Positions 4,064 to 17,655 of a stretch of 64,000 bases of DNA are shown piece by piece. Numbering within the stretch: position 1 is the first letter of the stretch; each line of letters begins with the position of its first letter. Made by a program: the position numbers and the translations under genes. The notes under the pieces are model-generated. The model ran no database searches, was not told the DNA's origin, and was given only the letters and a program-made list of their open reading frames with translations. Source of the stretch: Candidatus Levybacteria bacterium RIFCSPHIGHO2_02_FULL_40_18 (GTDB taxonomy: Bacteria > Patescibacteriota > Microgenomatia > Levybacterales > GWA1-39-11); assembly GCA_001782235.1 (NCBI GenBank), contig MFOC01000002.1, positions 42,912-106,911 on the forward strand, in the 5' to 3' direction.

Positions 4064-4124
4064 GGCTATCAGTAATTAAGCCCATCCTATCACAAAACTA
4101 AAATCAATGCAAGGACAACTCGGA

Positions 4125-4670
4125 TTATTGTTGCGACGTAACTTCGAGGATATCTGGATGCTCGCTATTATCAAACTCAAGAAATATTTCGGAGAGAGCC
4201 TTATGTCCTGGCCAAGGTGAGACTTTTCCATAACCCACAGAAGCTAATGATTCTTTTTGTGATTTTGGTTCTCCTGTAAGAAGACCATAACGTTCAATTA
4301 CTATTGCTAAGTATTGTGGCTTTCTTCGCCTGTGATCGCTCTGAGAAAATATATTATGAAGAACCCTTCCTGCCTTAGCAATATCTTCTGGTGTATTAAG
4401 GTGAAACCTTAGCTCATAATCGGTATAGTCGGAACTGAATGCGTCTTCAAAGAGCTTCCTGTAGCCTTTACTTACTCTCTCGACAAGTTCTGGAGGTACG
4501 CGCAGTAGAATACGGTCAGCCAAACTTTGATAATGTGCAGCTTCTTGTGCTTTTTCTTGGGCAATTTTTGCTTCATCTTTTTGAATTAATGCGCCTTCAA
4601 AGGAAGCAACGTGTGCCCTGAAAGATTCTTCTTGCCCCTTTTGAATATCTATCTCAAACCTTGAAACCAT
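4125..4670 (-). CDS. hypothetical cytoplasmic protein (181 aa) encoded between ftsA and ftsZ
   Basis: Intact ORF, 43 nt after the ftsA stop and 61 nt before the ftsZ start, same strand. No TM segment and no recognised domain. Confidence 0.5.
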   Translation of the reverse strand: MVSRFEIDIQKGQEESFRAHVASFEGALIQKDEAKIAQEKAQEAAHYQSLADRILLRVPPELVERVSKGYRKLFEDAFSSDYTDYELRFHLNTPEDIAKAGRVLHNIFSQSDHRRRKPQYLAIVIERYGLLTGEPKSQKESLASVGYGKVSPWPGHKALSEIFLEFDNSEHPDILEVTSQQ

Positions 4671-4713
4671 AATTACGGATATATTATAAGTATCTTTATC
4701 CCCTTGTCAATTG

Positions 4714-6054
4714 TTATTTGGGGAGGAAAGTCTTGAGTAGTTTTGTGATGGAACCGAATATGCCGCGGGTGAAGTTGAGATTGAGAGGACGCAGAATTCC
4801 GTCCAAAAACGAACCTTCTTCTTGACCCTGAAAACCTTTAGCAAAGAATAGAAGCCCAACAGATGTTGCAAAGCTCGGGTTTTCAATGTCATCAATTAAA
4901 CCCGTAACATTAGCAGGTATTCCTACTCGAACAGGCATTGACAACATTCTTTTCGCCGATTCCTCGGCACCGGCGGTCCTTGCCCCGCCTCCCGTAATTA
5001 CAACTCCGGCCGGAGTCTGCGTGGCAAAGCCGCTTTTCTTGAGTTCTATCCCAACCATAGTAAATAATTCATTAAGTCTTGGTTTTATTATTCCGTCCAC
5101 AAGTGTTTTCTGAGAAACTTTTTTTAAGTCTTCAATCAAATGAAGCCCTGCAAGATCTATATCATCGCTTGATCCCTCTTCCCCACTGGGCCGGAGACCC
5201 TCCCTCCGGGCAGAACCCTCTGGGGCGGCGTCTGGGCCGGTGGCTTCTTTGCTTTTCTTCCCGTACTTTCTTGAAAGATAGAGTTTAATCTTTTCAGCGC
5301 TTTCAAGCGATATTCGAAGCCCAATAGCAAGATCATTTGTGATGTGGCGAGCACCAATCGGTATAACAGACGAATAAGATAGCGCCCCTTCAACATAAAT
5401 ACAAATATTTGTAATTCCGGCGCCAATATCAACTAGAATTGCTCCCAGTTCCCTTTCGGTTTCTGTAAGAACGGCCAATGAGGAAGCAAGTCCTGAAAAT
5501 ACAACCGATGAGACGCCTACTCCGGCTTCCTGTTCAAGAACTCTTTGGACATTTTTAACCGAGACGGAATTCGCAGTAATTATGTGTGTATCCACCTCAA
5601 GTCTCACTCCTGTCATGCCGACAGGATCGCGAATGCCCGTTTCTCCGTCAACAGTAAATGTTTTTGGAAGGACGTGAAGAATACTAGTTGTAGAGGGCGT
5701 TGAAATAGCGCCAGCCGCCTCAAGGACTCTTTGAACATCCTGAGGGCCTATCTCCCCAGAGGGCTGAGAAATTGCAACAATTCCTTTTGAATTCTGACTT
5801 AATATGTAAACTCCTGACAATGAAACAAAAACGCGATCAACAGAATATCCTGCCATGCGTTCGGCTTGATCAAGCGAAGCATTAATTGAAGAAGAAGCTT
5901 CCTCTATGTCAACTATCTGCCCTTTCCTTATTCCTCTCGCCGGAACTTCTGAAACTCCCAAAATATTAATACCGTCTTCTTGCAACTGACCGACGATGGC
6001 TGCAACCTTTGAGGATCCTATGTCTACTCCTACGACGATTTGTGAATCAGCCAT
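4714..6054 (-). CDS. ftsA: cell division protein FtsA (actin-like ATPase) with a low-complexity insertion
   Basis: N-terminus VVGVDIGSSKVAAIVG (actin fold phosphate-1) with conserved FtsA architecture. Sits immediately upstream of ftsZ. Contains a GC-rich insert encoding EATGPDAAPEGSARREGLRPSGEEGSSDD. Confidence 0.9.
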   Translation of the reverse strand: MADSQIVVGVDIGSSKVAAIVGQLQEDGINILGVSEVPARGIRKGQIVDIEEASSSINASLDQAERMAGYSVDRVFVSLSGVYILSQNSKGIVAISQPSGEIGPQDVQRVLEAAGAISTPSTTSILHVLPKTFTVDGETGIRDPVGMTGVRLEVDTHIITANSVSVKNVQRVLEQEAGVGVSSVVFSGLASSLAVLTETERELGAILVDIGAGITNICIYVEGALSYSSVIPIGARHITNDLAIGLRISLESAEKIKLYLSRKYGKKSKEATGPDAAPEGSARREGLRPSGEEGSSDDIDLAGLHLIEDLKKVSQKTLVDGIIKPRLNELFTMVGIELKKSGFATQTPAGVVITGGGARTAGAEESAKRMLSMPVRVGIPANVTGLIDDIENPSFATSVGLLFFAKGFQGQEEGSFLDGILRPLNLNFTRGIFGSITKLLKTFLPK

Positions 6055-6160
6055 AAAATTTAGAACAATAGTTAAAATAGCTGAATAGTTAAATAGTTTT
6101 AGCTATGTAACCATTCTAACTATGTAGCTATTTGCTCTTGTTCTTATACTATTATATGTG

Positions 6161-6595
6161 CTAGAATTTTACAATAGGCTGCTCAAACCGAAGATCTATA
6201 AGTACGGGCTTTTTATTTTCTATCGTAAGTTTGTTAAGAATCAATTCCAAAGACACAACCTGCCATTTAGCATCGCGAGTTTTTGCGAAATAAACTTTAG
6301 GTCCATCTTTAACCTGACCTATAAATAAACTTGATGCGGAACTTTCAACTAAATATTCCGTAATAATATTTTTGTCGGATAAGATCTTGGACAAATCTTC
6401 GCGGGTTGCAAATTCTGAAACCGGCTTTATAATAGCATCTTTTTGTTCGCTTGAAAACTTAAGAAGCGGAAACAGATTTTTAACTGAAAGAGAGAGCAAT
6501 ATGCCGGCCGAAATTGCTAAAGCTGCGATCAATAAAGCAAAAATTGTCTTTTTAATATTCCTTCTAACTTTTCTTTTCACCATAAACCCCTTCAA
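6161..6595 (-). CDS. FtsQ/DivIB-like cell division protein (short, single N-terminal TM)
   Basis: Basic N-terminus, one TM (IFALLIAALAISAGILLSL), then a small extracytoplasmic domain. Occupies the canonical ftsQ slot between murG and ftsA. Only 144 aa, so assignment rests on position and topology. Confidence 0.45.
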   Translation of the reverse strand: MKGFMVKRKVRRNIKKTIFALLIAALAISAGILLSLSVKNLFPLLKFSSEQKDAIIKPVSEFATREDLSKILSDKNIITEYLVESSASSLFIGQVKDGPKVYFAKTRDAKWQVVSLELILNKLTIENKKPVLIDLRFEQPIVKF

Positions 6596-7676
6596 CTACA
6601 TCTGCTATTCGCTGGGCTGCGTCTTTTATTACAAACTCGCGTACGTTTTCCATATTATTTTTGTATCTTTCTTGATCTTTAAACATATTTCGAACCATAT
6701 CTAAAATTTTTTTTGGCACTGCATCATTCTCTTCTACGTACTCGCTTACGCCAAGATTCTTCAGGAATTTTGCATTCTCAAGCTGCTCGAGATTTTGTCC
6801 ATGAGGAAGTGGAATAAGTAAGCTCATTTTCTGCGTTGCCATAATCTCAAATATAATATTTGCTCCCGACCGCGAAATAATAAGATCGGCTCTTCTCAAT
6901 ACGTCTCCTATCTCGCGTGGATAAATAAACTTCTTAAGGATATATCTTTTCGCAAGATTCTGCGGTAGAGCTAGTTTTTTATGCGAAAGTTTTTCAAAGT
7001 CACGAAACTTAAGACTATCACCGGTTTGATGGATTATTGCGAAATCGCGGAGTAAATCTTCAAGAATGTCATAAATCACGGAATTTATAAAATGAGAGCC
7101 GGTACTGCCTCCGGTAACGTATATCACCCTACCCTCTGGAATTGAAATTTCACCCTTGGACTCAAAAATCTCAATTCTAACAGGATTACCGGTCATTACA
7201 ACTTTATGGGCGGGGAAAAAATTGGCCGAGCTTTTAAATGATACGCATATCTTCCTTGAGAACCTACCTACTATTCTGCTTGCGAGTCCTGCTTTTTGCG
7301 TTTGTTCATGCAAAACTACCGGGATACCCAAGAATTGTGCCGCCAAAGATATTGGAAGGCCAATGTATCCGCCAAAAGTTAAAACTATATTGGGTTTTGC
7401 TTCGGATAAAATTTTAATCGATGTGAGAAACCCAATCGGAGCTTTGAGAAGGGATGTAATAGTATAGGCAGTAAATTTTCTCTGAAAGCGACCGGTTTTT
7501 ATTTCATAAAATGGAAGATTTTCCTCTTTGGCGATTGCGTACTCAAGACTTTCGGTTTTATCACCCTCAAAGGGATAACGACGACCGGCGATTATTACTT
7601 CATGTCTTCGCGCGCCAAGCTCTTTAATTAAGCTATATGCAGGGGAAAAATGTCCCCCCGTAATTAGTACTTTCAT
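6564..7676 (-). CDS. murG: UDP-GlcNAc:lipid I N-acetylglucosaminyltransferase MurG
   Basis: N-terminal VLITGGHFSPA and C-terminal VTGGSTGSHFIN family-28 glycosyltransferase motifs. dcw position after ftsW. Confidence 0.9.
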   Translation of the reverse strand: MKVLITGGHFSPAYSLIKELGARRHEVIIAGRRYPFEGDKTESLEYAIAKEENLPFYEIKTGRFQRKFTAYTITSLLKAPIGFLTSIKILSEAKPNIVLTFGGYIGLPISLAAQFLGIPVVLHEQTQKAGLASRIVGRFSRKICVSFKSSANFFPAHKVVMTGNPVRIEIFESKGEISIPEGRVIYVTGGSTGSHFINSVIYDILEDLLRDFAIIHQTGDSLKFRDFEKLSHKKLALPQNLAKRYILKKFIYPREIGDVLRRADLIISRSGANIIFEIMATQKMSLLIPLPHGQNLEQLENAKFLKNLGVSEYVEENDAVPKKILDMVRNMFKDQERYKNNMENVREFVIKDAAQRIADVVEGVYGEKKS

Positions 7677-7680
7677 CTTT

Positions 7681-7766
7681 TAGTTTGTAACGTTCGTAAG
7701 GTTCGTAAAGTTCATAAAGTACTCAACTTTACAAACTTTAAAAACTTTATAAACCTTATAAACTAG
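7681..7766. repeat. palindromic intergenic element built of 9-nt units (GTAANGTTC x4 and inverse AAACTTTAN x4), termini TAGTTTGTAA...TTATAAACTAG
   Basis: Read directly between the ftsW stop and murG start. The right-end CTAG contains the ftsW TAG stop. Confidence 0.55.
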
Positions 7767-8833
7767 GTCTTGTGTCTTGCGATATTTAAAAGTATTCCGA
7801 TTGCGATAAAGTTTATAATTAATGACGAGCCGCCGTAAGAAACAAAAGGTAAGGGAACTCCTACCAGTGGAACTAAAATTACTTGGGATGCAAGATTAAC
7901 AAATGCCTGAATACTTATAAAGCTGACTATGCCTGCTCCGAGTAATTTTCCAAAAGTATCTTTAGTATTTTGCGCAATGTAAAAACCTATAATTGTGAGC
8001 ACAATAAAACATCCGATCAGAGCGCTCGCCCCCACAAAACCGGCTTCCTCAGCAAATATTGAAAAAATTGAATCGGTCGTTGATTCAGGTAAATAAGCAT
8101 ATTTTTGGATCGAATTTCCGAAACCAAGACCTGCTAATCCCCCTGAGCCAAGAGCAATTAAAATCTGCTTAATATGATATGGCGCGGAAGAAAGATTCTT
8201 TGAGTCAAAATTTTGAAAAGCAAGCAGTCTTTCAAGTCTATAGGGTGCAATCTTAATTAGTGCAAATATGCTTCCGGTAAGTAACAAAGCTATAAATATC
8301 ATGTCTCGAATTGGCGCTCCAGATAGAAAATATACAATTGTGGCAGTCGCGGCAATTATAAAAGCCGTTCCCAAGTCCGGTTCGATTACTACCAAAAGAA
8401 TTGATAACAGAAGAAGCATTAGAAAAGCCATCAGCCGTCCTTTTTCTCTCTCCGACAACCAAGCAGCAAGGTAAACCGTCAGGGTAATTTTAAGTACTTC
8501 CGACGGCTGGAGAACAATAAATCCTAAATTCAACCAACGATGGGCCCCTTTAAGCTTAAGGCCAATACCGGGGAAAAAAACAAGAATTAAAAGAAATAAA
8601 GATCCAAGCAAAAGAGGCAGGGCTAGTTTGTAATAGTTTTTATAATTAATTTTTGAAATAATAAGACACAAAACAACGCCTAAAATAAACCAAATCGCCT
8701 GGTTTTTAACAAAATAATATTTGTCTCCGATTGACAATAATGCCGTGTATGTAGAGCTTTCGTAGAGGATAAATATGCCAATTAGAGAAAGCGTTACCGA
8801 TGTCAAGAAAACAAGGAGTCCGGATTTTTTCAT
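7763..8833 (-). CDS. ftsW: SEDS-family peptidoglycan polymerase FtsW
   Basis: 10-TM protein with the SEDS conserved region ESTTDSIFSIFAEEAGFVGA. Located between mraY and murG. Confidence 0.85.
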   Translation of the reverse strand: MKKSGLLVFLTSVTLSLIGIFILYESSTYTALLSIGDKYYFVKNQAIWFILGVVLCLIISKINYKNYYKLALPLLLGSLFLLILVFFPGIGLKLKGAHRWLNLGFIVLQPSEVLKITLTVYLAAWLSEREKGRLMAFLMLLLLSILLVVIEPDLGTAFIIAATATIVYFLSGAPIRDMIFIALLLTGSIFALIKIAPYRLERLLAFQNFDSKNLSSAPYHIKQILIALGSGGLAGLGFGNSIQKYAYLPESTTDSIFSIFAEEAGFVGASALIGCFIVLTIIGFYIAQNTKDTFGKLLGAGIVSFISIQAFVNLASQVILVPLVGVPLPFVSYGGSSLIINFIAIGILLNIARHKT

Positions 8834-8866: not shown

Positions 8867-9916
8867 TCAAAGAAAAGCGATGTAGAGTCCAAGAAGCGCA
8901 AAAACTATACCAAGAAGCCACGCTCTCATAACAACCTTAGGCTCCTCCCACCCTCGTTTAATAAAATAAACGTGGATTGGGGTGGCAGGAAGTATTCGTT
9001 TACCCAAAAAACGGCGGGACAAAATTTGAAGAAGTGTAGATCCCACTTCAAGGACAAATACGCCTCCAATTAATGCGACTGGCAATGGTTTTCCGGTCAA
9101 AAGTCCCACAGCGCCCAATACCGCCCCGAGAGAAAGCGCTCCCACATCTCCAAGCCAAAGTCTCGCGCGATAAATATTGAAGTATAGAAAGGCCAGAACG
9201 CTCCCTATTAAAATTGCAATGAATAAAGAAAGGAATGGATCAATAATGGATCCTGAAACGGCAAGAAATGCAAGTAAACAAATAACAAGAAGGCCAGTCG
9301 CAAGCCCATCCAAACCATCTGAAAGGTTTACGGCATTTGCAAACGAGACAATGACAAAGGCTGCAAAAACTATATATAAAGCCCCAAGAACTATGTTTCC
9401 AAACCAATGTACGTAAACAAATGAGTACCCGAGTTGAAAATACATCACGGCCCCAATTATCAGTCCCAAGATACATTGGATTGCAAATTTATGAGCCAGT
9501 TTCAGTCCAAAAACACCAGTATGAGTATTGAATATTTTACGAAGGTCATCGTAAAAACCTAAGAAACCAAACCCTATAAATGTAAAGAGTAGGACAAATA
9601 ATTCCCAGAACTTAACATCCACTCGAAGCAATCCATATGCCCAGAGAGAAAGAAAAGTTACAACGAGAATAATCAAGAGTCCTCCGCCAAACGGAGTTCC
9701 AACTTTCCAGACCGAAAGTCTATCCAGTAATCTGACGCGCTGATTAAAAACATCACGATGATGGTTGTGACGCTTTTGAAGTTTAATTTTATATAATAAA
9801 TCTATAAAAGGGACAAGGAGTATCCCCGTTATTGTCAAGGATAGTATTGCAAATCCAAAAACCTGTGCCATATTTATTGTTTGCATCCTCGTCCTGAGCG
9901 GATCGAAGGATGCCAT
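8867..9916 (-). CDS. mraY: phospho-N-acetylmuramoyl-pentapeptide transferase MraY
   Basis: Polytopic membrane protein with the MraY/WecA family motif NAVNLSDGLDGLATG. dcw position. Confidence 0.9.
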   Translation of the reverse strand: MASFDPLRTRMQTINMAQVFGFAILSLTITGILLVPFIDLLYKIKLQKRHNHHRDVFNQRVRLLDRLSVWKVGTPFGGGLLIILVVTFLSLWAYGLLRVDVKFWELFVLLFTFIGFGFLGFYDDLRKIFNTHTGVFGLKLAHKFAIQCILGLIIGAVMYFQLGYSFVYVHWFGNIVLGALYIVFAAFVIVSFANAVNLSDGLDGLATGLLVICLLAFLAVSGSIIDPFLSLFIAILIGSVLAFLYFNIYRARLWLGDVGALSLGAVLGAVGLLTGKPLPVALIGGVFVLEVGSTLLQILSRRFLGKRILPATPIHVYFIKRGWEEPKVVMRAWLLGIVFALLGLYIAFL

Positions 9917-9925
9917 AAAAATTAA

Positions 9926-11545
9926 TTATAAGCGTAAAATGGATCTAGACGCAATAAGCGAGAATGAATTATAAGCTTCCCTCCCCTCAAATACAACTAT
10001 GTCGGGCGCTTTGGTATTTTTATCAACAAATTTTGCAATTTTTGCCGGGGGCAAAACTTGGACAAGGCAAAGAGATTTTTCCTCCTGTATCCCTATAACT
10101 AAAGGTTTGTAATGATTATCATTTGTCAGGAAAAGATAATCGCATACTTTTCCAATCTCTTTTCCTAATTCCAAATGATCTTGGTACGCGTTCTTGCCAA
10201 GCTCCGTAAGTGGCTGAAGGATCAAAATTTTCTTTCCCTTATATAATTTCATATATTCAATTGCCCCTCTTATAGAGTTAATGTGAGTATTGTATGTGTC
10301 GTTTATCAAAATTGAGCCTTTGGAGTTCTTCGCAGGATCCATTGTTCTTGGCAAGGGACGAAGGCGCAATAACTCCTTTCTAATCAATGAAAAATCTATA
10401 CCTAAATACAGTCCTAAAAAAAATCCCGGGAGAAGATTTTCTACGTTTTGTAATCCCACGAGCTTAATGTCTGATACTTTATGTTTTTTTCCAAAGACGC
10501 GAACATCAAAAGATACCGAAAAGCGAGAAATCCTAATGTTTGACGCATAAATATCCGATGCTAAACCCGCCTCTTCAAAAGAGTAAATAAATTTTTTATT
10601 TTTAATTCGACTATATAAAGACATTGTATTGGGATTATTTCCGCATAAAATAACAATTCCGTCTCTTGGCAGCGAGCCAACTACTTCATATTTTGATTCT
10701 ATTACATTATCAAGGTTCCCGAAAACAGAAGTTTTTTCATCGTTTATTCCCGTAATAACTGCTATTTTAGGACTTGCTATATTGCACATCTCGGATACAT
10801 CTCCCTTTTTGTAGTCTTCCATCTCAACTATAAATACCTGCTTGCGAGTATCAAGTTTTGAGAGAATTGTTTTTGCTATTCCGAGAGCACTATTAAAGGG
10901 CGTATCATTTTCAAGCACGTTGAATTTAATCGATAATATTCTTGTAATAAATTCTTTAGTTGAGCCTTTAGCGTAACTTCCAACTATGGCAACCGTCAGG
11001 AGATGTTTGTGTTTATTAAATTTATCAATTGCTCGATTTATGATTGTGTCTTGTTTAAAGTCAAAGAAAACTAAAAAAATACTTATAAAGAAAGCTGTAA
11101 TAAACGGCAATAGTTTGTCAATTATAACCATCCAAAGGAATTGATCTAATGGGGGAAGAAGATATAAAACGATCGAAACAGCCAATGTAAGAAGTATTAT
11201 TAGGATAACATTAAAAGAAATTCTCGGCAATAAAAATTCACGATTATAAATTTTATATAATATCTTTAGAAAAAAATAAAAGTAGAGGAAAAATATTAAT
11301 AGATGGTAATAAAAGTCAAGGCCGCTTACGTAAATTGTCGAGCCATATAAAAAAATTACTAATATCTTGACAAGGTTTTCCCATCCTAATATTAAACTTC
11401 TCCCTCTTTTTGTTTCTCTAATGTATATTAAAATGCGCTTTGCTCTGTATTCTTTATCTTCCCAAAGCTTGACCCAGGAAAAAGCATTAAATATTAAGAA
11501 GGAGAAAAAGAATATTGATGTTAGTCTAAAAACAAGATCCGCCAT
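9926..11545 (-). CDS. murF: MurF-like Mur ligase with N-terminal ~170-aa polytopic membrane domain and degenerate P-loop
   Basis: C-terminal 370 aa match the Mur ligase family: VAIVGSYAKGSTKE aligns to the MurF P-loop GSSGKTSVKE, and DTYNTHINS matches the MurF-specific DDSYNANP motif. The first ~170 aa are four to five hydrophobic helices instead of the canonical MurF N-domain. Located immediately upstream of mraY. Confidence 0.7.
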   Translation of the reverse strand: MADLVFRLTSIFFFSFLIFNAFSWVKLWEDKEYRAKRILIYIRETKRGRSLILGWENLVKILVIFLYGSTIYVSGLDFYYHLLIFFLYFYFFLKILYKIYNREFLLPRISFNVILIILLTLAVSIVLYLLPPLDQFLWMVIIDKLLPFITAFFISIFLVFFDFKQDTIINRAIDKFNKHKHLLTVAIVGSYAKGSTKEFITRILSIKFNVLENDTPFNSALGIAKTILSKLDTRKQVFIVEMEDYKKGDVSEMCNIASPKIAVITGINDEKTSVFGNLDNVIESKYEVVGSLPRDGIVILCGNNPNTMSLYSRIKNKKFIYSFEEAGLASDIYASNIRISRFSVSFDVRVFGKKHKVSDIKLVGLQNVENLLPGFFLGLYLGIDFSLIRKELLRLRPLPRTMDPAKNSKGSILINDTYNTHINSIRGAIEYMKLYKGKKILILQPLTELGKNAYQDHLELGKEIGKVCDYLFLTNDNHYKPLVIGIQEEKSLCLVQVLPPAKIAKFVDKNTKAPDIVVFEGREAYNSFSLIASRSILRL

Positions 11546-11580: not shown

Positions 11581-12903
11581 TCAGGATCTCTTTGGGCGGC
11601 CGTATCTGCCGGCCCGCTTCGCCATAGCTTTATCGAGGCGAGCAGGCAGGGTTTTCTTTTCTTCTACAAACTCGGCAAATTTTGTATAAAATGTAGTATC
11701 TGAATCAACATTTCTCATAACGGTTGTGGATGGTCCAATAATTGCATTATTTCCAATAGTTATTCCGGGCATGGTGGAAACCCGCTCTCCAATTACCACA
11801 TTATCGCCAATTATCGCGCCAAGAGACCCAAAACCTGTATCTATCTTTTCTCCATTAACCACGGAACGGACGTTAGCTCTATCCAGGCGAACATTTGCAG
11901 TTCCAAATAGAGCTCCAATTTTGGAATTTTGCCCAAGTACAGAATCACCTATAAATCCTGAATGTGTTTTTGTTCCTTCCAAAATTAGCGATCCCCTCAC
12001 TTCCATATATGCACCTATGACGGCAGATTCTTCAATATCTGATCCATCTCTAACAAGCGAATTAGACCCTATGAAGACGTTTCTACCTATGTAGCATGGT
12101 CCTTTTATAACTGCGTTTTCAAGTACCTGTGCGCCCTCTTCTATAACTACACTCCCATCAATTTGTGCGTTACCTGCAATCCGCGCTTTCTTTGAAATAC
12201 TTCTTTTTTGTTTTGAAAGTATGTAGTTTTTGATATTAAGAAGATCCCACGGATACTTTAAAGATAATATTTTATGGTTTGTTAATGCAAGAAGAACTCT
12301 CTTTTCTTTTGCGTATTTATCTAGAGCGTTCTCCAAGGAATAATGTGTTGATGGAATTTTTTTAAGAGTTTTAACGAAATCCTGGTTAAGAAAATAAACG
12401 CCAACAATTCGTAAATTTGAAAATCCACGACTACTCTTGGGCTTCTCGGAAATTTCAAGTACCCTATCGCCATTTATTTTAAGCGCTCCGAATTTTCTTT
12501 GCGATGGCTCGGGCGTTGCAAGAAGAACCGGTTCCTTATTTGTGCCTCTATTTAAGTCTATTGCGTGCTTTAACTCATCAAACTCTACATGATTTGAATT
12601 AACTAAAAAAAAATCTCCCGTTAGAAATTTTGATGCAACTATAAGAGCATCGCCCGCTCCAGTTGGCTTTTCTTGAATAACATATCGAATTTTAACGCCA
12701 AACTTTTTGCCATTCCCCAAAACATCTTGAAAGTTACGGTTGTTGCCGGTTACTATAGTGATATCAGTTATACCAGCGCGCTTAACAGCTCGGACAGTGT
12801 GCGAAATCAATGATTCTCCGGCAATTTTTACAAGACATTTGTGTTTCAGGTTCAGTGGGAAGAATCTACTTGATTCTCCTGCTGCCAGTAGTACTGCTTG
12901 CAT
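11581..12903 (-). CDS. GlmU-like bifunctional sugar-1-phosphate nucleotidyltransferase / hexapeptide-repeat acetyltransferase
   Basis: N-terminal AVLLAAGESSRF nucleotidyltransferase motif. C-terminal 180 aa of left-handed beta-helix hexapeptide repeats. 440 aa, close to GlmU size. Confidence 0.65.
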   Translation of the reverse strand: MQAVLLAAGESSRFFPLNLKHKCLVKIAGESLISHTVRAVKRAGITDITIVTGNNRNFQDVLGNGKKFGVKIRYVIQEKPTGAGDALIVASKFLTGDFFLVNSNHVEFDELKHAIDLNRGTNKEPVLLATPEPSQRKFGALKINGDRVLEISEKPKSSRGFSNLRIVGVYFLNQDFVKTLKKIPSTHYSLENALDKYAKEKRVLLALTNHKILSLKYPWDLLNIKNYILSKQKRSISKKARIAGNAQIDGSVVIEEGAQVLENAVIKGPCYIGRNVFIGSNSLVRDGSDIEESAVIGAYMEVRGSLILEGTKTHSGFIGDSVLGQNSKIGALFGTANVRLDRANVRSVVNGEKIDTGFGSLGAIIGDNVVIGERVSTMPGITIGNNAIIGPSTTVMRNVDSDTTFYTKFAEFVEEKKTLPARLDKAMAKRAGRYGRPKRS

Positions 12904-14264
12904 TAGACTATTCCTCTTTCTCCCGCATAGCGAGATCTCTCCTCAAGAGACTCTTCAATAACATCTATGTCTGCCCCAAGTGATCGAAGTCGCTTGTCAA
13001 AAGCTTCATATCCTCGTTCAAGATATTCAATTCCAAAGACTATACTTTCTCCTTTTGCAATTAAAGCTGCTATTACCAGCGATGCGCCGGCTCGTAGGTC
13101 CGAGATATTTAATACTGCATTGTGGAGATGAGTCTTGCCGTGAATCTTTAACCCATGTTTACCATTTTTGCGATAATTAAAATTGTAAAATTCTTTTGGA
13201 TTCACAACTTCAGGTTGATAAATTTCCAAATCCGCTCCCATTTTCGCAAGTTCATTAACGTACCCAAATCTATTTTCGTAAATTGTCTCATGAATAGTAG
13301 AGTCACCTTCCGCTTGAGTCATAAAAATAGCCCAAGGTCCCTGCCAATCGGTCATAAAACCCGGATGAGGTGCGGTCAATATGTGCGTTGGCTTAACATA
13401 GCCGGTCAAATAAAATCTTGCTTTTGAGTCCTTTTTCTCCCATTTTCCCCCTGCTTCTTTAAACTCCGAAACAAAATTCTTAATATCTAAAAGGTCTATG
13501 TTTTTAATATAAATTGCACCACCTGTTAGCGCCGAAAGGATTGCAAAAGTTATAGCTTCATTTCTATCGGGGGGAATCTCAAAAGTTGCCCTATGAAGCT
13601 TTTGAACTCCATCTATTACAATTGTTCGAGGTTCTGTCCTCTTAATTTTTGCTCCCATTGAATTCAAAAGACCAATAAGATCATCGACCTCGGGCTCTTG
13701 TGCAGCATTCTCAAGAACGGTTTTTCCGTGAGCCAAAGTTGCCGCCATTATAAGCGTTTCTGTTCCTGTGTGGGTGTTTTTTTTGAAACGATACATTGTA
13801 CCCTTTAATCCGTTGGTTCTAACATGGAAATATCCGTCTCGACTGTTATATTTTGAAACCGCCCCCATTTTTTCAAGTCCTTCAATATGACGATCTATGG
13901 GACGGGCTCCAATTCTGCAACCGCCGGGATTTGGAATTAATGCCTCCTTTTTTCGGGCTAAAAGCGGGGCTAAAAACATAGAAGATGTTCTAATTTTTGC
14001 CCCCATCTCAAGAGGAATTTTGATGTTTCTTATTTTCTCGACAGAAATTTTTACCGTGTGTCCCGAAAGCTTAACATGCCCGCCAATTTCTTTAACGAGC
14101 TCGAGCATTACTAAAACATCTGAAATTAGAGGAACGTTCTTGATCTCAACGGGTTCGTTTGTCAAACACGCGGCAATTATTGCTTTTAAAACCACATTCT
14201 TGCTTCCTGAAACCGCGACTTCCCCAGCGAGCTTACTCCCACCATTTATAATATATTTTTTCAT
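12903..14264 (-). CDS. murA: UDP-N-acetylglucosamine 1-carboxyvinyltransferase MurA
   Basis: N-terminus IINGGSKLAGEVAVSGSKN and active-site Cys loop PGGCRIGARPID. ~450 aa EPT fold. Confidence 0.9.
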   Translation of the reverse strand: MKKYIINGGSKLAGEVAVSGSKNVVLKAIIAACLTNEPVEIKNVPLISDVLVMLELVKEIGGHVKLSGHTVKISVEKIRNIKIPLEMGAKIRTSSMFLAPLLARKKEALIPNPGGCRIGARPIDRHIEGLEKMGAVSKYNSRDGYFHVRTNGLKGTMYRFKKNTHTGTETLIMAATLAHGKTVLENAAQEPEVDDLIGLLNSMGAKIKRTEPRTIVIDGVQKLHRATFEIPPDRNEAITFAILSALTGGAIYIKNIDLLDIKNFVSEFKEAGGKWEKKDSKARFYLTGYVKPTHILTAPHPGFMTDWQGPWAIFMTQAEGDSTIHETIYENRFGYVNELAKMGADLEIYQPEVVNPKEFYNFNYRKNGKHGLKIHGKTHLHNAVLNISDLRAGASLVIAALIAKGESIVFGIEYLERGYEAFDKRLRSLGADIDVIEESLEERSRYAGERGIV

Positions 14265-15769
14265 ACTAGTTTTTCCGCCACGTGATAAACGTCTCCTGCT
14301 CCCATTGTAATTACTATTTTATCCGATCCTTTAACGTTTTTCCTGATGTATTCTACCACACTCGTTTGCGTTTCAATCAACTTCACATTAGGTTGGACTG
14401 TCCGAACTTTTTCAACGAACTCTCGGTCCTCCGCGAGCCCATGTTCGCTGAGATCACGAGCCGATGTAAAAGTCGGCAAAATTATTAGTTCTGAAACACC
14501 CGCAAAAGAGGAGGTAAACTCAGAAAGAAGAGCCTTTGTTCTGTTGTAAGTATGTGCTTGAAAAATAACCGTAATTTTTTTGTTTGGAAATGTAGCTTTT
14601 ATTGCTTCGAGAGTTTTTCGAATTTCTTCTGGGTGATGAGCGTAATCATCAAATATTAAAACCCCATCGGGGGTTTCGCCGATTCCCTCAATTCTCCTCT
14701 TAATGCCCCTAAATTCGGGAAGGACTCTTTGAATATCTTGAATCGAAAAACCAAGCTCAATAAGAAGCGCAATAACGGCTAGCGAATTCTTGGCGTTATG
14801 GTATCCTGGAATTGATAATTCGAATATTCCAAGCGAAGTATCTTTTCGAAAGACTTCAAAGTGCGAACCAAAAACGTGCGAACCAAAAACCTCCTGGTTA
14901 AACCCAGCACCATAATGGCGCTGGGTAAAATTCTTTATTACAAATTCATTCCCCTCATCAGCCCCATAAGTAAAAACCCTAATCCGACTGCCATCACCCG
15001 TGATACCCTTTATACCCGTGGTGCTCGTGATACTTTTAATATTTCCGTCATCGCCATTCACAATAAGAGTTGAATCCGAATCTAGATTCGATACGAATTT
15101 CCTATATGCTTCCCGAACCTCCTCAATATCCTTAAAAAAATCCGGATGGTCAAAGTCAATGTTGTTTATGATTAAATACTTAGGATGTTGATGTAAAAAT
15201 TTAGGATTTCGATCGAATTTTAGTTCGGAGAGGTACTCATCAGCCTCTGCTATAAAATATTTACCCCGGCCATAATGCCCCGCGGCGCCAATCTGAAAAA
15301 TTTCGCTCGTCCCAACGGTGAAACTAGGGTCGGACCCCAAGCGTGAAAGACATGCTGCTGTCATTCCTGCAATTGTAGTTTTACCGTGAGATCCTGAAAT
15401 AGAAATACCTTCGATGTCATTTCGGCCGAACAATTCTCCCGACATAAATAATCCGACCGCTTCCCCATGAGATATAACCCTGTAATCGTTCTCCCGAGCA
15501 AAAACTGCTTCCGGATTTTCAAAACCATCGTGAGCCGCTGTGGCAATAAAAAGACACTCGTCAGGTCGAGTTGTCCCAAAAAAGTTCTCCACATTCTCCT
15601 TTTTAAACCCAATTAGACTATCTATCCCTGCCTCCTTCAGTATTTTATCCGTTATAAATTCTTCCTCGACATCACTTCCTTCCACAATAAATCCAGCCTC
15701 TTTGGCAATAATCGCCAAAGTTGCCATCCCCACACCCTTAATCCCCATGAAATATATCTTTTTATACAT
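14261..15769 (-). CDS. murC: UDP-N-acetylmuramate--L-alanine ligase MurC
   Basis: N-terminal IYFMGIKGVGMATLA...GSD (MurC Rossmann signature) and P-loop ISISGSHGKTT. Confidence 0.8.
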   Translation of the reverse strand: MYKKIYFMGIKGVGMATLAIIAKEAGFIVEGSDVEEEFITDKILKEAGIDSLIGFKKENVENFFGTTRPDECLFIATAAHDGFENPEAVFARENDYRVISHGEAVGLFMSGELFGRNDIEGISISGSHGKTTIAGMTAACLSRLGSDPSFTVGTSEIFQIGAAGHYGRGKYFIAEADEYLSELKFDRNPKFLHQHPKYLIINNIDFDHPDFFKDIEEVREAYRKFVSNLDSDSTLIVNGDDGNIKSITSTTGIKGITGDGSRIRVFTYGADEGNEFVIKNFTQRHYGAGFNQEVFGSHVFGSHFEVFRKDTSLGIFELSIPGYHNAKNSLAVIALLIELGFSIQDIQRVLPEFRGIKRRIEGIGETPDGVLIFDDYAHHPEEIRKTLEAIKATFPNKKITVIFQAHTYNRTKALLSEFTSSFAGVSELIILPTFTSARDLSEHGLAEDREFVEKVRTVQPNVKLIETQTSVVEYIRKNVKGSDKIVITMGAGDVYHVAEKLV

Positions 15770-15811
15770 GAGAATAGTATTATATTAAATACATCGAATA
15801 CATGCCACTAG

Positions 15812-15938
15812 CTAGAAATTGGTTATTAGAAATTAGAAAATGGTTCGGAAATTAGAAATTGGAAATTGGAATTTAATTACCATTTTCTATTTTCAATTCT
15901 CCATTACTATTTTCTATTATCTATTAACTATTTTCTAG
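15812..15938. repeat. palindromic AT-rich intergenic element (family A/B) built of GGAAATT heptamer repeats and their inverse, termini CTAGAAATTGG...AACTATTTTCTAG
   Basis: Four direct GGAAATT-like 7-mers followed by their inverted copies (CCATTTTC). Bounded by CTAG at both ends. Second copy at 41290..41417. Confidence 0.6.
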
Positions 15939-15939
15939 A

Positions 15940-17655
15940 TTATTGTGATGGCAGATTATAGTACTTGATGAGATCGCGGGCAATGTTAAAAAAGATAGGT
16001 GCGGCGGTTTCGGAGCCGTAAATTGATGTCTTGGGACGGTCCACTAGAACCAGCATTGTGATTTTAGGGTTGTCTGCCGGGAAAAATCCTACAAATGATG
16101 CTATTGTTTGATTTGGGTCATAGTGTCCCGCAACCGGAATCTGGGCAGTCCCGGTTTTCCCAGCAATTTTATAATTTTTGATCTTTGTCCATTTTGCCTC
16201 TCCTTCCTCAACTGCCGAGACCATCATGCCGGCTATTATCTTTGACGTTGATTCCTTAATAACTTTTGTTTTAATTTTTGGTTTTATGTCTATTTTTTTA
16301 CCTTCTTCCGTAATTATTTGTGAAACAGCATATGGGGTCATAAGATTCCCCCCATTTGCTATAGCATTGACTGCATTTGCTAGTTGAATCGGCGTAATGG
16401 AAATTCCCTGTCCAAAAGAGGCCGTTGCCAAATCTATCGGATACCATGAATCTTTATCGCGAATTACCCCTGTTGTTTCTCCCTGAAGATCAATCCCTGT
16501 TATTTTTCCAATCCCAAACCTGTTAAGATACTTAATCATATTCGAGAGTCCTAATTTTCTCCCCACAAAAACCATTCCCGTATTATTAGAGTGAATTATT
16601 ACCTCTCGCATCGTAGAGTTTGGAAAATACTTATCGTTCCAGGTCCTTATTTTATAATCCCCCTCCTGAATCGGTCCCGAACAAATATTGCAGCGGGTCT
16701 CGGGTTTAACCTTGTTCTCATCAATTGCCGCAGCCATAATAAGCACCTTAAATGTTGAGCCCGGCTCATAGACGTTCGACAACACGGGATTTGTGTAAGA
16801 GCCTGGGTCAAATTCGTAGTATTTTTGAGGGTCAAATGAAGGAATTGACGATATGGCAAGAATAGCTCCTGTCTCACTCTCCATAACAACCACGCTTCCA
16901 CCCTCTGCGTTATATCGTAGAACTCCCTCGCGAAGCCTCTTTTCCGCCGTAAATTGAACAGTCCTATCAAGCGTTAACTTTAAACTTCTCCCGTCAATTT
17001 TCTTATCCTCCCGTGTATCTCCTACTATTTGATTGCCCAATGCGTCACGAATTGCATAAAGCTTTCCCGAACGCCCTGAGAGTTGTTGGTCATAACGTCC
17101 TTCAATTCCAAAGTATCCTTTATCCTGTCCTTGCGAATCTTTGCCTAAAAACCCAATTAAATGTGCCGCCATAGATGCCTCGGGATAAAATCGAGTATAT
17201 TCTTGCTGAAAACCTAACCCTGCAAGCGCAAGTTTTTCGATCGCCCGCTTTTTATCTTGATCAAGTCCGGTAGCAAGCTTCACCCAGTATAGGTCAGATG
17301 AAAGCTTTGCCGAGACTGATGCCGGATCGTCCGCCAAAATGGTACTTAGTTTCTCAGTATAATCTTGTCTATCTTTTATAATTTTGGGGTTGGTATAAAG
17401 AAAATATGAAATAGTGTTGGTAGCAAGAGGAAAATCATCTCTTGATTTTATTTCCCCTCGAATGGCCGGAATTGTCAGAACTTGAGAGCTTTGAGCGCGG
17501 CCTAGATCCGATAATCCAGATCCGCGGACTATCTGCCATAAAAATAACCTAGCAATTACGGCGATGTAAAAAAAGCACAGGAAGACAAGGACAAGAGCAA
17601 ATCGTAATTTTTCCCCCACCAGGCCAGAGGCCCTCGGGGCCGGAGACCATCTCAT
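15940..17655 (-). CDS. ftsI: class B penicillin-binding protein (transpeptidase) FtsI
   Basis: N-terminal TM. Transpeptidase motifs STFK (EPGSTFKV), SNN (HSNNTG) and KTGT (AGKTGTA). Confidence 0.85.
   Translation of the reverse strand: MRWSPAPRASGLVGEKLRFALVLVFLCFFYIAVIARLFLWQIVRGSGLSDLGRAQSSQVLTIPAIRGEIKSRDDFPLATNTISYFLYTNPKIIKDRQDYTEKLSTILADDPASVSAKLSSDLYWVKLATGLDQDKKRAIEKLALAGLGFQQEYTRFYPEASMAAHLIGFLGKDSQGQDKGYFGIEGRYDQQLSGRSGKLYAIRDALGNQIVGDTREDKKIDGRSLKLTLDRTVQFTAEKRLREGVLRYNAEGGSVVVMESETGAILAISSIPSFDPQKYYEFDPGSYTNPVLSNVYEPGSTFKVLIMAAAIDENKVKPETRCNICSGPIQEGDYKIRTWNDKYFPNSTMREVIIHSNNTGMVFVGRKLGLSNMIKYLNRFGIGKITGIDLQGETTGVIRDKDSWYPIDLATASFGQGISITPIQLANAVNAIANGGNLMTPYAVSQIITEEGKKIDIKPKIKTKVIKESTSKIIAGMMVSAVEEGEAKWTKIKNYKIAGKTGTAQIPVAGHYDPNQTIASFVGFFPADNPKITMLVLVDRPKTSIYGSETAAPIFFNIARDLIKYYNLPSQ

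What the first reader, a model, noticed from the sequence alone, without database searches (positions are those of the whole stretch)
9926..11545. MurF with an N-terminal polytopic membrane domain and a degenerate Walker-A loop (GSYAKGST instead of GxxGKT)
The Mur ligase core and the MurF-specific DTYNTH (DDSYNANP-like) motif are present. The usual N-terminal substrate-binding domain is replaced by ~170 aa of four to five TM helices. The P-loop aligns as GSYAKGSTKE versus the canonical GSSGKTSVKE (Gly to Ala and Thr to Gly). A membrane-tethered D-Ala-D-Ala-adding enzyme placed next to MraY could channel UDP-MurNAc-pentapeptide directly to lipid I synthesis. Alternatively this is a catalytically altered paralog.
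Basis: partly seen in the sequence, partly recalled or inferred. Interest (0 to 1): 0.6.

Follow-up and report, generated by a model that had tools for sequence, protein, structure and literature searches.

The report
Membrane-anchored MurF with rewired active site
This gene is the form of the cell-wall enzyme MurF typical of the tiny Patescibacteria (CPR), with five membrane helices in place of the usual substrate-binding domain, and in this Levybacteria lineage its ATP/magnesium site has also been rebuilt, so it may work differently or not at all as an enzyme.

Summary
ORF 9926-11545 (-) encodes 539 aa: a five-helix membrane domain (aa 1-~160), a stalk helix, then Mur-ligase middle and C-terminal domains that match MurF best by sequence and fold. 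The P-loop is GSYAKGST.

The fusion is not a start-codon artefact or a paralog. It is the standard Patescibacteria MurF ortholog, found in at least 539 GTDB species genomes and 797 50%-identity clusters, and it lies upstream of mraY in the loci examined.

The P-loop changes alone say little. Lys+1 = Gly is normal in active FolC/FPGS and in 19 otherwise intact family members. Gly->Ala occurs in 2 of the 146 otherwise intact members.

The real anomaly lies elsewhere. The window belongs to a Levybacteria sub-clade (35 sequences) that has lost the superfamily-invariant Mg-site His (K271 here). It has gained an acidic pair (E243-D244). The Walker Lys varies in this clade (K20/R13/V1/M1), against 146/146 Lys in the other members.

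Other lineages carry fully dead ligases in the same dcw slot but keep the membrane domain.

Best reading (0.5): a membrane-held, active-site-rewired MurF. Main rival (0.3): a non-catalytic scaffold.

Whether the genome holds a second murF or a ddl could not be tested.

The parts
9926..11545 (-). Whole ORF, 539 aa: Patescibacteria-type membrane-anchored MurF ortholog
11015..11545 (-). N-terminal membrane domain plus stalk (aa 1-177). Five TM helices (2-30, 55-70, 76-100, 111-129, 135-~160). TM5 continues as the linker helix into the ligase. Near-invariant family residues: W28, K31, R37, T45, G48, K60, P107, W138, D143.
   Evidence: No Pfam hit. No PDB fold match, best Foldseek E=2.1.
11384..11455 (-). 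Conserved basic cytoplasmic loop 1 (aa 31-54, KEYRAKRILIYIRETKRGRSLILG; family motif WQxKEYRxxR...H.RET.QG[KR])
   Evidence: The motif is kept even in the dead-ligase orthologs.
10430..10981 (-). Mur ligase middle (ATP-binding) domain, aa 189-372
   Evidence: PF08245, 76 bits
10955..10981 (-). P-loop GSYAKGSTK (aa 189-197). Walker Lys K193 is kept. A192 replaces Gly and G194 replaces Thr/Ser.
10814..10825 (-). E241-M-E243-D244. The catalytic Glu is kept. The clade-specific acidic pair replaces the family's Gly-Ala.
10733..10735 (-). K271, at the position of the superfamily-invariant Mg2+-site His (His in 146/146 intact family members and in E. coli MurF)
10691..10693 (-). K285, at the position of the carbamylated Lys of MurD/E/F. 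It is retained.
   Evidence: The role is assigned from established Mur ligase knowledge, not tested here.
10436..10447 (-). N367-V-E-N370 (the HNxxN motif of Mur ligases). Both Asn are retained.
10340..10351 (-). P399-R-T401-M. T401 sits where canonical MurF has the invariant Arg (E. coli PGRL). That Arg is absent from nearly the whole Patescibacteria family (R in 6 of 146).
10085..10324 (-). Mur ligase C-terminal domain (aa 408-487). It includes NDTYNTHIN (10277-10303) and ELGKNAYQDH (10175-10204).
8867..9916 (-). mraY, starting 9 nt downstream. Operon partner and likely functional partner.
11581..17655 (-). Upstream operon genes: archaeal-type GlmU-like (11581-12903), murA (12903-14264), murC (14261-15769, intact GSHGKTT), ftsI (15940-17655, with STFK/SNN/KTG motifs)
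2978..8833 (-). Downstream operon genes: ftsW (7763-8833), murG (6564-7676), ftsQ-like (6161-6595), ftsA (4714-6054), 181-aa ORF (4125-4670), ftsZ (2978-4063)

Best explanation
The gene is the Patescibacteria (CPR) version of murF.

Architecture and location (shown):
- The cytoplasmic ATP-binding and C-terminal domains of a MurF-type ligase hang from a conserved five-helix membrane domain (N-out/C-in).
- That membrane domain has replaced the soluble UDP-substrate-binding domain 1.
- The gene sits in the dcw operon immediately before mraY.

Function in most Patescibacteria (inferred):
- Every catalytic residue is invariant there, so the protein is presumably the D-Ala-D-Ala-adding enzyme.
- It would be held at the membrane so that its product is made beside MraY.

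This lineage (shown):
- The window's copy belongs to a Levybacteria sub-clade whose ATP/Mg2+ centre was rebuilt on the stem branch.
- The Mg-site His became Lys (K271).
- The Gly-Ala after the catalytic Glu became Glu/Asp-Asp (E243-D244).
- The P-loop is FPGS-like (A-K-G-S-T).

Most likely working (inferred): the protein is still a nucleotide-dependent ligase with a rewired site. The new carboxylates and/or K271 would take over the role of the His-bound second Mg2+. K271 may also partly back up the Walker Lys.
For: Identity as MurF-type:
- TIGR01143 murF scores 178 bits against 57 or less for non-MurF models.
- The top ten PDB fold matches are all MurF, E about 1e-22.
- The residue-level alignment to 1GG4, 3ZL8 and 4QDI is clean.

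Family-wide architecture:
- At least 539 GTDB species representatives across Levy-, Woese-, Gottesman-, Pace-, Staskawicz-, Parcu- and Saccharibacteria encode a relative.
- The N-domain profile finds 797 50%-identity clusters. In the 150 best hits listed it lies at or near the N-terminus of proteins mostly about 520-560 aa long.
- Each locus has one copy.

Synteny:
- The gene lies just upstream of mraY-ftsW-murG in the window, L001, L003, L084, L089 and L091.

Intact relatives:
- G189, K193, E241, H(271) and E448 are invariant in 146/146 His-keeping members.

Evidence that this clade is still functional:
- Within the sub-clade the ATP domain is the best conserved part: M 57%, C 49%, TM 44%. 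This is the same order and size as in the intact sister clades.
- It is the opposite of the dead-ligase lineages: TM 30%, M 18.5%, C 20%.
- The query keeps K193, E241, K285, N367, N370, D416, N419, E448 and H457.
- D244 is newly fixed in 33/35 and position 243 is acidic in 31/35. This looks like a constrained replacement, not decay.
- 33 of 35 clade members keep a Lys at position 193 or 271, and all 13 with R193 have K271.
- GK-G-[ST] is the P-loop of active FolC/FPGS.

Pathway context:
- murC is intact and ftsI carries the SxxK/SxN/KTG motifs, so a D-Ala-D-Ala stem should still be needed.
Against: - The His lost here is invariant across the Mur ligase superfamily (established knowledge) and is present in 146/146 other family members.
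- The Walker Lys is R, V or M in 15 of 35 clade members against 0 of 146 elsewhere. Fisher p is about 1e-12, but the sequences are not phylogenetically independent. Lys-to-Arg in a P-loop usually abolishes phosphoryl transfer.
- Orthologs in the same dcw slot in other Microgenomates have lost every ligase motif yet persist at about 530 aa. The protein can therefore be kept for a non-catalytic reason.
- Clade dcw loci lack the murE, murB and femX-like genes that are common in sister loci.
- No activity data exist.
- The invariant Arg of the domain 2/3 junction is missing.
Confidence: 0.5

Rival explanations
1. Pseudoenzyme. In this Levybacteria clade the ligase half no longer catalyses D-Ala-D-Ala addition. 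The protein is kept for a role carried by the membrane domain and overall scaffold. Examples would be docking or organising MraY and the lipid I step, or binding a nucleotide or precursor as a sensor. D-Ala-D-Ala addition would then be done by another enzyme or not at all.
For: - The superfamily-invariant His is lost in all 35 clade members. The Walker Lys is R13/V1/M1, against 0/146 changes in the other members.
- The M domain shows accelerated change on the clade stem: A-S identity 41% against S-B 50%.
- P0120, P0124 and P0147 give no Pfam Mur ligase match, and P0120 and P0147 have plainly destroyed P-loops. All three occupy the same slot (glmS-X-mraY-ftsW-murG), and murE and murC beside P0120 and P0147 are intact.
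- In those lineages the membrane domain is the best conserved part.
- The femX-like gene is absent from 0/9 clade loci and 0/3 dead-ligase loci, but present in 49/64 other loci.
- Precedent: a plant MurE-like protein (PAP11) is a structural subunit of the plastid RNA polymerase (PDB entries seen).
Against: - The within-clade conservation pattern (M > C > TM, 57/49/44%) is that of the active clades, not of the dead ones.
- The query keeps the Walker Lys and all other catalytic positions.
- The new acidic pair is itself strongly conserved.
- ftsI transpeptidase motifs are intact, which implies pentapeptide stems.
- No second MurF-like gene lies within the 64-kb window, within 10 kb either side of it, or in the clade loci.
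- No clade assembly contributed a second membrane-type locus among the 80 best genome hits.
Confidence: 0.3
2. Changed substrate. Without a UDP-binding domain and embedded in the membrane, the enzyme would ligate its amino acid or dipeptide onto a lipid-linked precursor (lipid I or II tripeptide), as MurT/GatD and FemX act on lipid II. Alternatively it would add something other than D-Ala-D-Ala.
For: - Domain 1 is absent.
- The membrane domain carries conserved polar residues, including a near-invariant intramembrane Asp (D143) and a basic cytoplasmic loop.
- MurT, which works on lipid II, also lacks domain 1 and appears among the fold matches.
- In this clade the C-domain motif shifts from DDT[FY]NANP to NDTYN[AT][NH]IN.
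Against: - Patescibacteria MurE also lacks domain 1 yet has no membrane domain. Loss of domain 1 therefore does not by itself imply a lipid substrate.
- No MurT, FolC or PgsB model matches the query at E<=1.
- No gatD-like partner lies nearby.
- The gene order, with murF before mraY, is the canonical one.
Confidence: 0.1
3. Artefact: a wrong start codon, or two ORFs fused by an assembly or frameshift error. The hydrophobic N-terminus would then belong to a separate small membrane protein.
For: One relative (L075) is split into a 184-aa N-part and a 346-aa C-part. Many short N-domain-only hits exist in the representative search.
Against: - The identical 539-aa product is called in 47 collection blocks, on contigs up to about 400 kb from independent samples.
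- About 50 homologs at 31-95% identity have the same length and cover 96-100% of the query.
- 206 non-identical full-length members carry both halves.
- AlphaFold2 models one continuous helix (135-177) joining membrane and ligase.
- The short hits are consistent with genes cut at contig ends.
Confidence: 0.01

Closest known systems
Canonical MurF (UDP-MurNAc-tripeptide:D-Ala-D-Ala ligase; E. coli 1GG4, A. baumannii 4QF5/4QDI, P. aeruginosa 4CVK-M, T. maritima 3ZL8)
   Same: - Same middle and C-terminal domains. Foldseek E is about 1e-22, TM-score 0.6-0.73 on the target, over about 375 aligned columns.
- Best sequence model.
- Same place in the dcw operon, before mraY.
- Retained Glu, carbamyl-Lys position, HNxxN Asn pair, DxxYN and ELG...H motifs.
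   Different: - No soluble domain 1. A five-helix membrane domain takes its place.
- The invariant Arg of the domain 2/3 junction is absent in nearly the whole Patescibacteria family.
- In this clade the invariant His is Lys, the P-loop is A-K-G-S-T, and an acidic pair follows the catalytic Glu.
- It scores below the TIGR01143 cutoff (178 against 288.6).
Patescibacteria membrane-type MurF orthologs with intact motifs (e.g. Candidatus Levybacteria OGH21814.1 = P0042; loci L011, L016, L026)
   Same: - Same architecture, length and membrane-domain motifs.
- Same operon slot.
- 31-42% identity over the full length.
   Different: These keep GSYGK[STG]ST, EMGAYK, QH..LFGS and DDT[FY]NANP. Their loci usually also carry short murE, murB and a femX-like gene.
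Dead-ligase orthologs in other Microgenomates (P0120, P0124, P0147 and about 20 more clusters)
   Same: - Same membrane domain.
- Same length.
- Same slot: glmS-X-mraY.
   Different: In these the P-loop, Glu and His are all gone and Pfam no longer recognises a Mur ligase. The window protein is far less changed.
FolC/FPGS (E. coli 1W78, T. maritima 1O5Z, 6K8C)
   Same: Same superfamily. The P-loop has Gly after the Walker Lys (GTNGKG[ST]), as in GSYAKGST.
   Different: No FolC model matches the query. The substrates differ and FolC has no membrane domain.
MurT (lipid II isoglutaminyl synthase subunit, 6GS2/7Q8E)
   Same: A Mur-ligase homolog that lacks domain 1 and works at the membrane on a lipid-linked precursor.
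   Different: - MurT is soluble and needs GatD.
- It has a DUF1727 C-domain.
- It gives a weaker fold match (TM 0.38).
- No MurT model hit and no gatD nearby.
PAP11 / plant MurE-like protein in the plastid RNA polymerase (8R5O, 8R6S)
   Same: Precedent for a Mur-ligase fold kept for a structural, non-ligase role.
   Different: Eukaryotic, soluble, in an unrelated complex. It is an analogy only.

Membership tests
MurF (TIGR01143 / canonical D-Ala-D-Ala-adding enzyme) | Mur ligase middle (ATP) domain PF08245 | tested here: met
   76.4 bits, aa 189-372
MurF (TIGR01143 / canonical D-Ala-D-Ala-adding enzyme) | Mur ligase C-terminal domain PF02875 | tested here: met
   30.9 bits against cutoff 28.4, aa 408-487
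MurF (TIGR01143 / canonical D-Ala-D-Ala-adding enzyme) | N-terminal UDP-substrate-binding domain (PF01225-type domain 1) | tested here: not met
   No Pfam hit in aa 1-188. The region is five TM helices. The murF profile aligns only from position 71.
MurF (TIGR01143 / canonical D-Ala-D-Ala-adding enzyme) | Score above the curated family cutoff | tested here: not met
   177.9 against 288.6 bits. Intact Patescibacteria orthologs also fail, at 199 and 238 bits.
MurF (TIGR01143 / canonical D-Ala-D-Ala-adding enzyme) | Closer to MurF than to MurC/D/E/Mpl | tested here: met
   murF models score 96-178 bits against murC 57, murD 38 and murE 29 or less. The top ten PDB fold hits are MurF.
MurF (TIGR01143 / canonical D-Ala-D-Ala-adding enzyme) | P-loop GxxGK[TS] | tested here: inconclusive
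   GSYAKGST. The Walker Lys is kept. Gly->Ala and Thr->Gly each occur in otherwise intact family members, and Lys+1 = Gly is normal in FolC.
MurF (TIGR01143 / canonical D-Ala-D-Ala-adding enzyme) | Invariant Mg2+-site His (NxxxxH motif) | tested here: not met
   K271 aligns to His of 1GG4. His is present in 146/146 intact family members and in 0/35 members of this clade.
MurF (TIGR01143 / canonical D-Ala-D-Ala-adding enzyme) | Invariant Arg at the domain 2/3 junction (PGRL) | tested here: not met
   T401 (PRTM). Arg is at this column in only 6/146 intact Patescibacteria members.
MurF (TIGR01143 / canonical D-Ala-D-Ala-adding enzyme) | Catalytic Glu, carbamyl-Lys position, HNxxN Asn pair, DxxYN Asp/Asn | tested here: met
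   E241, K285, N367, N370, D416 and N419 are present
MurF (TIGR01143 / canonical D-Ala-D-Ala-adding enzyme) | dcw operon position next to mraY | tested here: met
   9 nt upstream of mraY. Same in relatives.
MurF (TIGR01143 / canonical D-Ala-D-Ala-adding enzyme) | ATP-dependent addition of D-Ala-D-Ala to UDP-MurNAc-tripeptide | not testable with these tools
   Needs an enzyme assay or complementation
Patescibacteria membrane-type MurF (family delineated here) | N-terminal 5-TM domain with W28/K31/R37/T45/G48/P107/W138/D143 signature | tested here: met
   Residues are invariant or at least 90% conserved in A2/A3, and the query has all of them. The domain profile finds 797 clusters.
Patescibacteria membrane-type MurF (family delineated here) | Single polypeptide of about 520-560 aa joining the TM domain to the M and C domains through a continuous helix | tested here: met
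   539 aa; helix 135-177
Patescibacteria membrane-type MurF (family delineated here) | Single copy in the dcw cluster upstream of mraY | tested here: met
Patescibacteria membrane-type MurF (family delineated here) | Invariant catalytic set G189/K193/E241/H271/E448 | tested here: not met
   H271 is Lys. The other four are present.
MurT (lipid II isoglutaminyl synthase) | Match to MurT models, DUF1727 C-domain, GatD partner | tested here: not met
   No MurT family at E<=1. No glutaminase gene nearby.
FolC/FPGS | Match to the folC model | tested here: not met
   TIGR01499 is not among the hits at E<=1. Only the P-loop style is shared.
PgsB/CapB poly-gamma-glutamate synthase | Match to TIGR04012; pgsC/pgsA neighbours | tested here: not met
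   Not among the hits at E<=1. The neighbours are dcw genes.

The most novel reading that the evidence does not exclude
The membrane domain of Patescibacteria MurF has an autonomous, selected function at the lipid I step. It could be an obligate MraY partner or a module that handles undecaprenyl phosphate or the precursor.

In several Microgenomates lineages the ligase half has become non-catalytic: mildly changed here, completely in others. Those bacteria would then build their wall without MurF-catalysed D-Ala-D-Ala addition, or with an enzyme not yet recognised.
Probability: 0.3. Interest if true: 0.8.

Novelty: new variant of a known kind. Interest (0 to 1): 0.62.

Why it matters
Textbooks treat the Mur ligases MurC-F as soluble cytoplasmic enzymes, with MraY as the first membrane step.

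Here a whole bacterial superphylum, at least 539 species-level genomes, carries a MurF built into the membrane with a domain of unknown fold. I found no paper describing it in five full-text searches, and the window's own protein is deposited as 'hypothetical protein'.

That makes a physical MurF-MraY hand-off directly testable.

Intact, rewired and fully dead versions all sit in the same operon slot. This gives a graded natural series for two questions: what the membrane domain does by itself, and whether some ultra-small bacteria make peptidoglycan without a canonical D-Ala-D-Ala-adding step.

There is also an annotation consequence. Curated murF models miss the family because it scores below their cutoffs.

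Tried and rejected
- **Wrong start or fused ORF:** rejected, because homologs have the same length and cover M1.
- **Canonical P-loop elsewhere in the protein:** none found.
- **Second Mur ligase in the window:** only murC. Pfam on most ORFs of at least 150 aa across the window, plus the contig 10 kb beyond each end, showed no murB, murD, murE or ddl.
- **Second copy of the membrane domain in any locus:** none.
- **Testing whether clade genomes hold murE:** the search with a Levybacteria murE returned 7935 hits. They could not be assigned to assemblies.
- **Third homolog search (P0120):** it returned only itself, but this unlocked the context look-up.
- **Look-up of the window's last ORF:** it failed, as no exact product is on record.
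- **Literature:** five full-text searches found nothing on a membrane-fused MurF.
- **Model coordinates:** they are not exposed, so I could not measure distances from K271, E243 or D244 to the ATP site, or from loop 1 to the UDP site.
- **dN/dS:** not attempted, because the relatives available are either about 99% or at most 70% identical.
Full report
**1. What is there**

The finding's coordinates match a single ATG ORF on the minus strand, 9926-11545, 539 aa.
- It starts 35 nt after the stop of an archaeal-type GlmU-like gene and ends 9 nt before mraY.
- The surrounding minus-strand operon is mraW, a small ORF, ftsI, murC, murA, glmU-like, this gene, mraY, ftsW, murG, ftsQ-like, ftsA, a 181-aa ORF, ftsZ.
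- Pfam sees Mur_ligase_M (aa 189-372, 76 bits) and Mur_ligase_C (aa 408-487, 30.9 bits). It sees nothing in aa 1-188.
- NCBIfam ranks murF models first. TIGR01143 scores 177.9 bits and aligns only from profile position 71. murC scores 57, murD 38 and murE 29 or less. The murF score is below the curated cutoff of 288.6.

**2. The membrane domain is real and part of the same protein**

- Kyte-Doolittle hydropathy shows about five hydrophobic segments in aa 1-164.
- An AlphaFold2 model built on 42 family sequences is confident (pLDDT 91, pTM 0.85). It shows helices 2-30, 55-70, 76-100, 111-129 and 135-177, plus two short helices in a loop at 35-53. Helix 135-177 runs without a break from the membrane into the linker that precedes the P-loop strand.
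- Lys+Arg counts in successive loops are 8, 0, 2, 0 and 5. This gives an N-out/C-in topology with the ligase in the cytoplasm.
- About 50 homologs of 530-555 aa at 31-95% identity cover 96-100% of the query from Met1.
- The identical product is called in 47 blocks of the collection, on contigs up to about 400 kb. It is deposited as 'hypothetical protein' of Candidatus Levybacteria (OGH16767.1 and others; genome GCA_001782635.1).
- The wrong-start and fused-ORF refutations therefore fail.

**3. The P-loop reading is correct but over-interpreted**

- HMMER aligns GSYAKGSTKE to GSSGKTSVKE of E. coli MurF 1GG4.
- There is no other GxxGK[ST] in the protein.
- Gly after the Walker Lys is the rule in active FolC/FPGS: GTNGKG[ST] in 1W78, 6K8C and 1O5Z.
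- Gly after the Walker Lys also occurs in 19 of 146 family members whose other catalytic residues are all intact. Ala at the preceding Gly occurs in 2 of the 146.

**4. How widespread the architecture is**

They span Levy-, Woese-, Gottesman-, Pace-, Staskawicz-, Parcu- and Saccharibacteria. Matches usually begin within the first 30 residues.
- A profile of the N-terminal 175 residues alone finds 797 clusters at 50% identity in 1.84 billion representatives (E<=1e-3). In the 150 best hits listed it lies at or near the N-terminus, mostly of proteins about 520-560 aa long. The shorter hits look like genes cut at contig ends.
- Each of 86 loci has exactly one ORF with this domain.
- The domain has no Pfam model and no significant fold match in the PDB, best E=2.1.
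- Conserved positions lie in the basic cytoplasmic loop 1 (W28, K31, R37, T45, G48), at P107, and in TM5 (W138, D143).
- Five full-text literature searches found no description of a membrane-fused MurF.

**5. It is the ortholog of MurF, not a paralog**

- By fold, the ten best PDB matches are all MurF, with E about 1e-22, about 375 aligned columns and TM-score up to 0.73 on the target.
- By synteny, the gene lies just upstream of mraY-ftsW-murG in the window, in an intact-motif Levybacteria genome (L001), in a clade relative (L003) and in three dead-ligase lineages.
- No other MurF-like gene lies in the 64-kb window, in 10 kb beyond either end of it or in the clade's loci.
- No clade assembly contributed a second membrane-type locus among the 80 best genome hits.
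- A canonical murF elsewhere in these genomes could not be excluded with the tools available.

**6. The real anomaly**

I aligned 206 non-identical full-length family members.
- 146 keep the Mg-site His. In these, G189, K193, E241, the His and E448 are invariant (146/146), G192 is 144/146, and the residues after the catalytic Glu are Gly-Ala (136 and 139 of 146).
- The window protein has K271 at the His position. This is also seen directly against 1GG4, where AAAHLEGFGS aligns to NDEKTSVFGN.
- The window belongs to a monophyletic Levybacteria clade of 35 sequences (at least 46% identity) on a long stem branch. In that clade:
  - none has His (K26/N6/R2/S1);
  - position 244 is Asp in 33/35;
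  - position 243 is Glu or Asp in 31/35;
  - the Walker Lys is K20/R13/V1/M1.
- Retained in the clade are E241 (33/35), K285 (34/35), N367 and N370 (32/35 each), D416 and N419 (35/35) and H457 (34/35).
- The sister group already has GK-G-ST but keeps His and EMGAYK. The Thr-to-Gly change therefore predates the remodelling.
- The invariant Arg of canonical MurF (PGRL) is missing from almost the whole Patescibacteria family, not just here.

**7. Decay or rewiring?**

- Within the clade, mean pairwise identity is 57% for the ATP domain, 49% for the C domain and 44% for the membrane domain. The intact sister clades show the same order and size: 55/47/39 and 52/46/40.
- Divergence between the clade and its sister is concentrated in the ATP domain: 41%, against 50% between two intact clades. 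The change was therefore a burst on the stem followed by renewed purifying selection.
- The new acidic pair and the new Lys are themselves conserved.
- 33 of 35 members keep a Lys at 193 or 271, and all 13 with Arg193 have Lys271. This fits compensation, although shared ancestry could produce the same pattern.
- These points favour a rewired but constrained nucleotide site over simple decay.

**8. The counter-weight**

- Twenty-five further clusters carry the membrane domain but have lost the His. In 15 of them the Walker Lys is gone too, with P-loops such as LLIGGEETTVLK.
- They fall into several groups whose nearest neighbours are different intact Levybacteria-type sequences.
- Three were looked up. 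P0120, P0124 and P0147 have no Pfam Mur hit, yet each sits in the same slot...murE(short)-murC-murA-...-glmS-X-mraY-ftsW-murG-ftsQ-ftsA-ftsZ.
- Where DNA was available, for P0120 and P0147, murE and murC beside them have intact motifs.
- In the 15 most degenerate sequences the conservation order is inverted: membrane domain 30%, ATP domain 18.5%, C domain 20%. One caveat is that they were found with a membrane-domain profile.
- The protein can thus persist for a reason that does not need ligase chemistry.
- A femX-like gene lies beside the membrane-type murF in 49/64 other loci and 6/9 sister loci. It is absent from 0/9 clade loci and 0/3 dead-ligase loci. murE and murB are likewise absent from the clade loci.

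**9. Verdict**

- Shown: the architecture, its family-wide distribution, orthology by fold and synteny, and the pattern of catalytic-site changes.
- Inferred: in intact lineages the protein is the D-Ala-D-Ala-adding enzyme held at the membrane beside MraY.
- For the window's protein I favour a rewired, still nucleotide-dependent ligase (0.5). The reasons are that its ATP domain is constrained like that of active relatives, it keeps the Walker Lys, and ftsI (STFK/SNN/KTG) and murC are intact.
- A non-catalytic scaffold or sensor role is a serious rival (0.3).
- A changed, possibly lipid-linked, substrate is a minor rival (0.1). It is weakened because Patescibacteria MurE also lacks domain 1 without having any membrane domain.
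- The decisive data are the gene content of complete clade genomes (ddl, a second murF) and an activity or complementation test.

Noticed in passing
L011:5218-6450, L016:443-1663, L049:2150-3487, L089:1791-3002 and many others: Patescibacteria MurE is only about 390-430 aa and lacks the N-terminal UDP-binding domain. The murE profile aligns from position about 61, and none of the 120 best listed of 7935 close hits carries PF01225. Only a short hydrophobic helix precedes the P-loop. So two of the four Mur ligases in this group lack domain 1.
   Followed up: partly
L001:12905-13918 and equivalents in 49 of 64 other loci: A FemAB/FemX-like gene, often with a DegT-type aminotransferase, sits between the membrane-type murF and mraY in most Patescibacteria loci. 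It is missing from all loci of the window's clade and from the dead-ligase loci.
   Followed up: partly
L061:18171-19271: A second MurF-like ORF of 367 aa lies about 6.5 kb downstream of an intact membrane-type MurF in a Pacebacteria contig. It has no membrane domain, an odd P-loop (VTGKGKKTTKE) and no Mg-site His. It scores 129 bits on TIGR01143 over the C-terminal two thirds.
   Followed up: partly
L089:10001-11602, L091:10001-11581, JGI 3300050046 contig: Orthologs in the murF slot whose ligase motifs are completely erased (no Pfam hit), while the membrane domain and the length are kept. The neighbouring murE and murC in L089 and L091 are intact.
   Followed up: yes
L089:4439-5158: A 239-aa ORF lies between murC and murA, where other loci have murB (about 298 aa). 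Its N-terminus loosely resembles MurB. It may be a truncated or degenerate murB.
   Followed up: no
window 11581-12903 (-): The nucleotidyltransferase plus hexapeptide-repeat gene upstream is closest to the archaeal-type bifunctional GlmU (TIGR03992, 287 bits, just under the 292 cutoff), not to bacterial GlmU (86 bits).
   Followed up: partly
window 4125-4670 (-): A 181-aa ORF with no Pfam match lies between ftsA and ftsZ. It is also called at the same position in independently assembled contigs of the same organism (L084-L087).
   Followed up: no
window about 26000-64000 and L088: A surface-glycan gene region of more than 40 kb. It holds at least ten glycosyltransferases, a sugar transferase (PF02397), dTDP-sugar (rml-type) genes, DegT aminotransferase, methyltransferases, PMT_2-like proteins and very large membrane proteins (1079 aa with a weak Wzy_C hit, 1210 aa, 869 aa).
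   Followed up: no
window 35768-36433 (-): A weak IS200-like transposase (Y1_Tnp) match sits inside the glycan region, next to the only large plus-strand ORF there (34761-35705).
   Followed up: no
L004, L006, L009, L011 and other loci: Many contigs carrying Levybacteria-type dcw clusters are titled 'uncultured Gammaproteobacteria bacterium' in their public records, and one is titled 'Nanoarchaeota archaeon'. These look like mislabelled or mis-binned MAGs.
   Followed up: no
L087:15103-16173: A second FtsW/RodA-family gene lies about 5 kb beyond the start of the window, after ileS, in the same organism.
   Followed up: no
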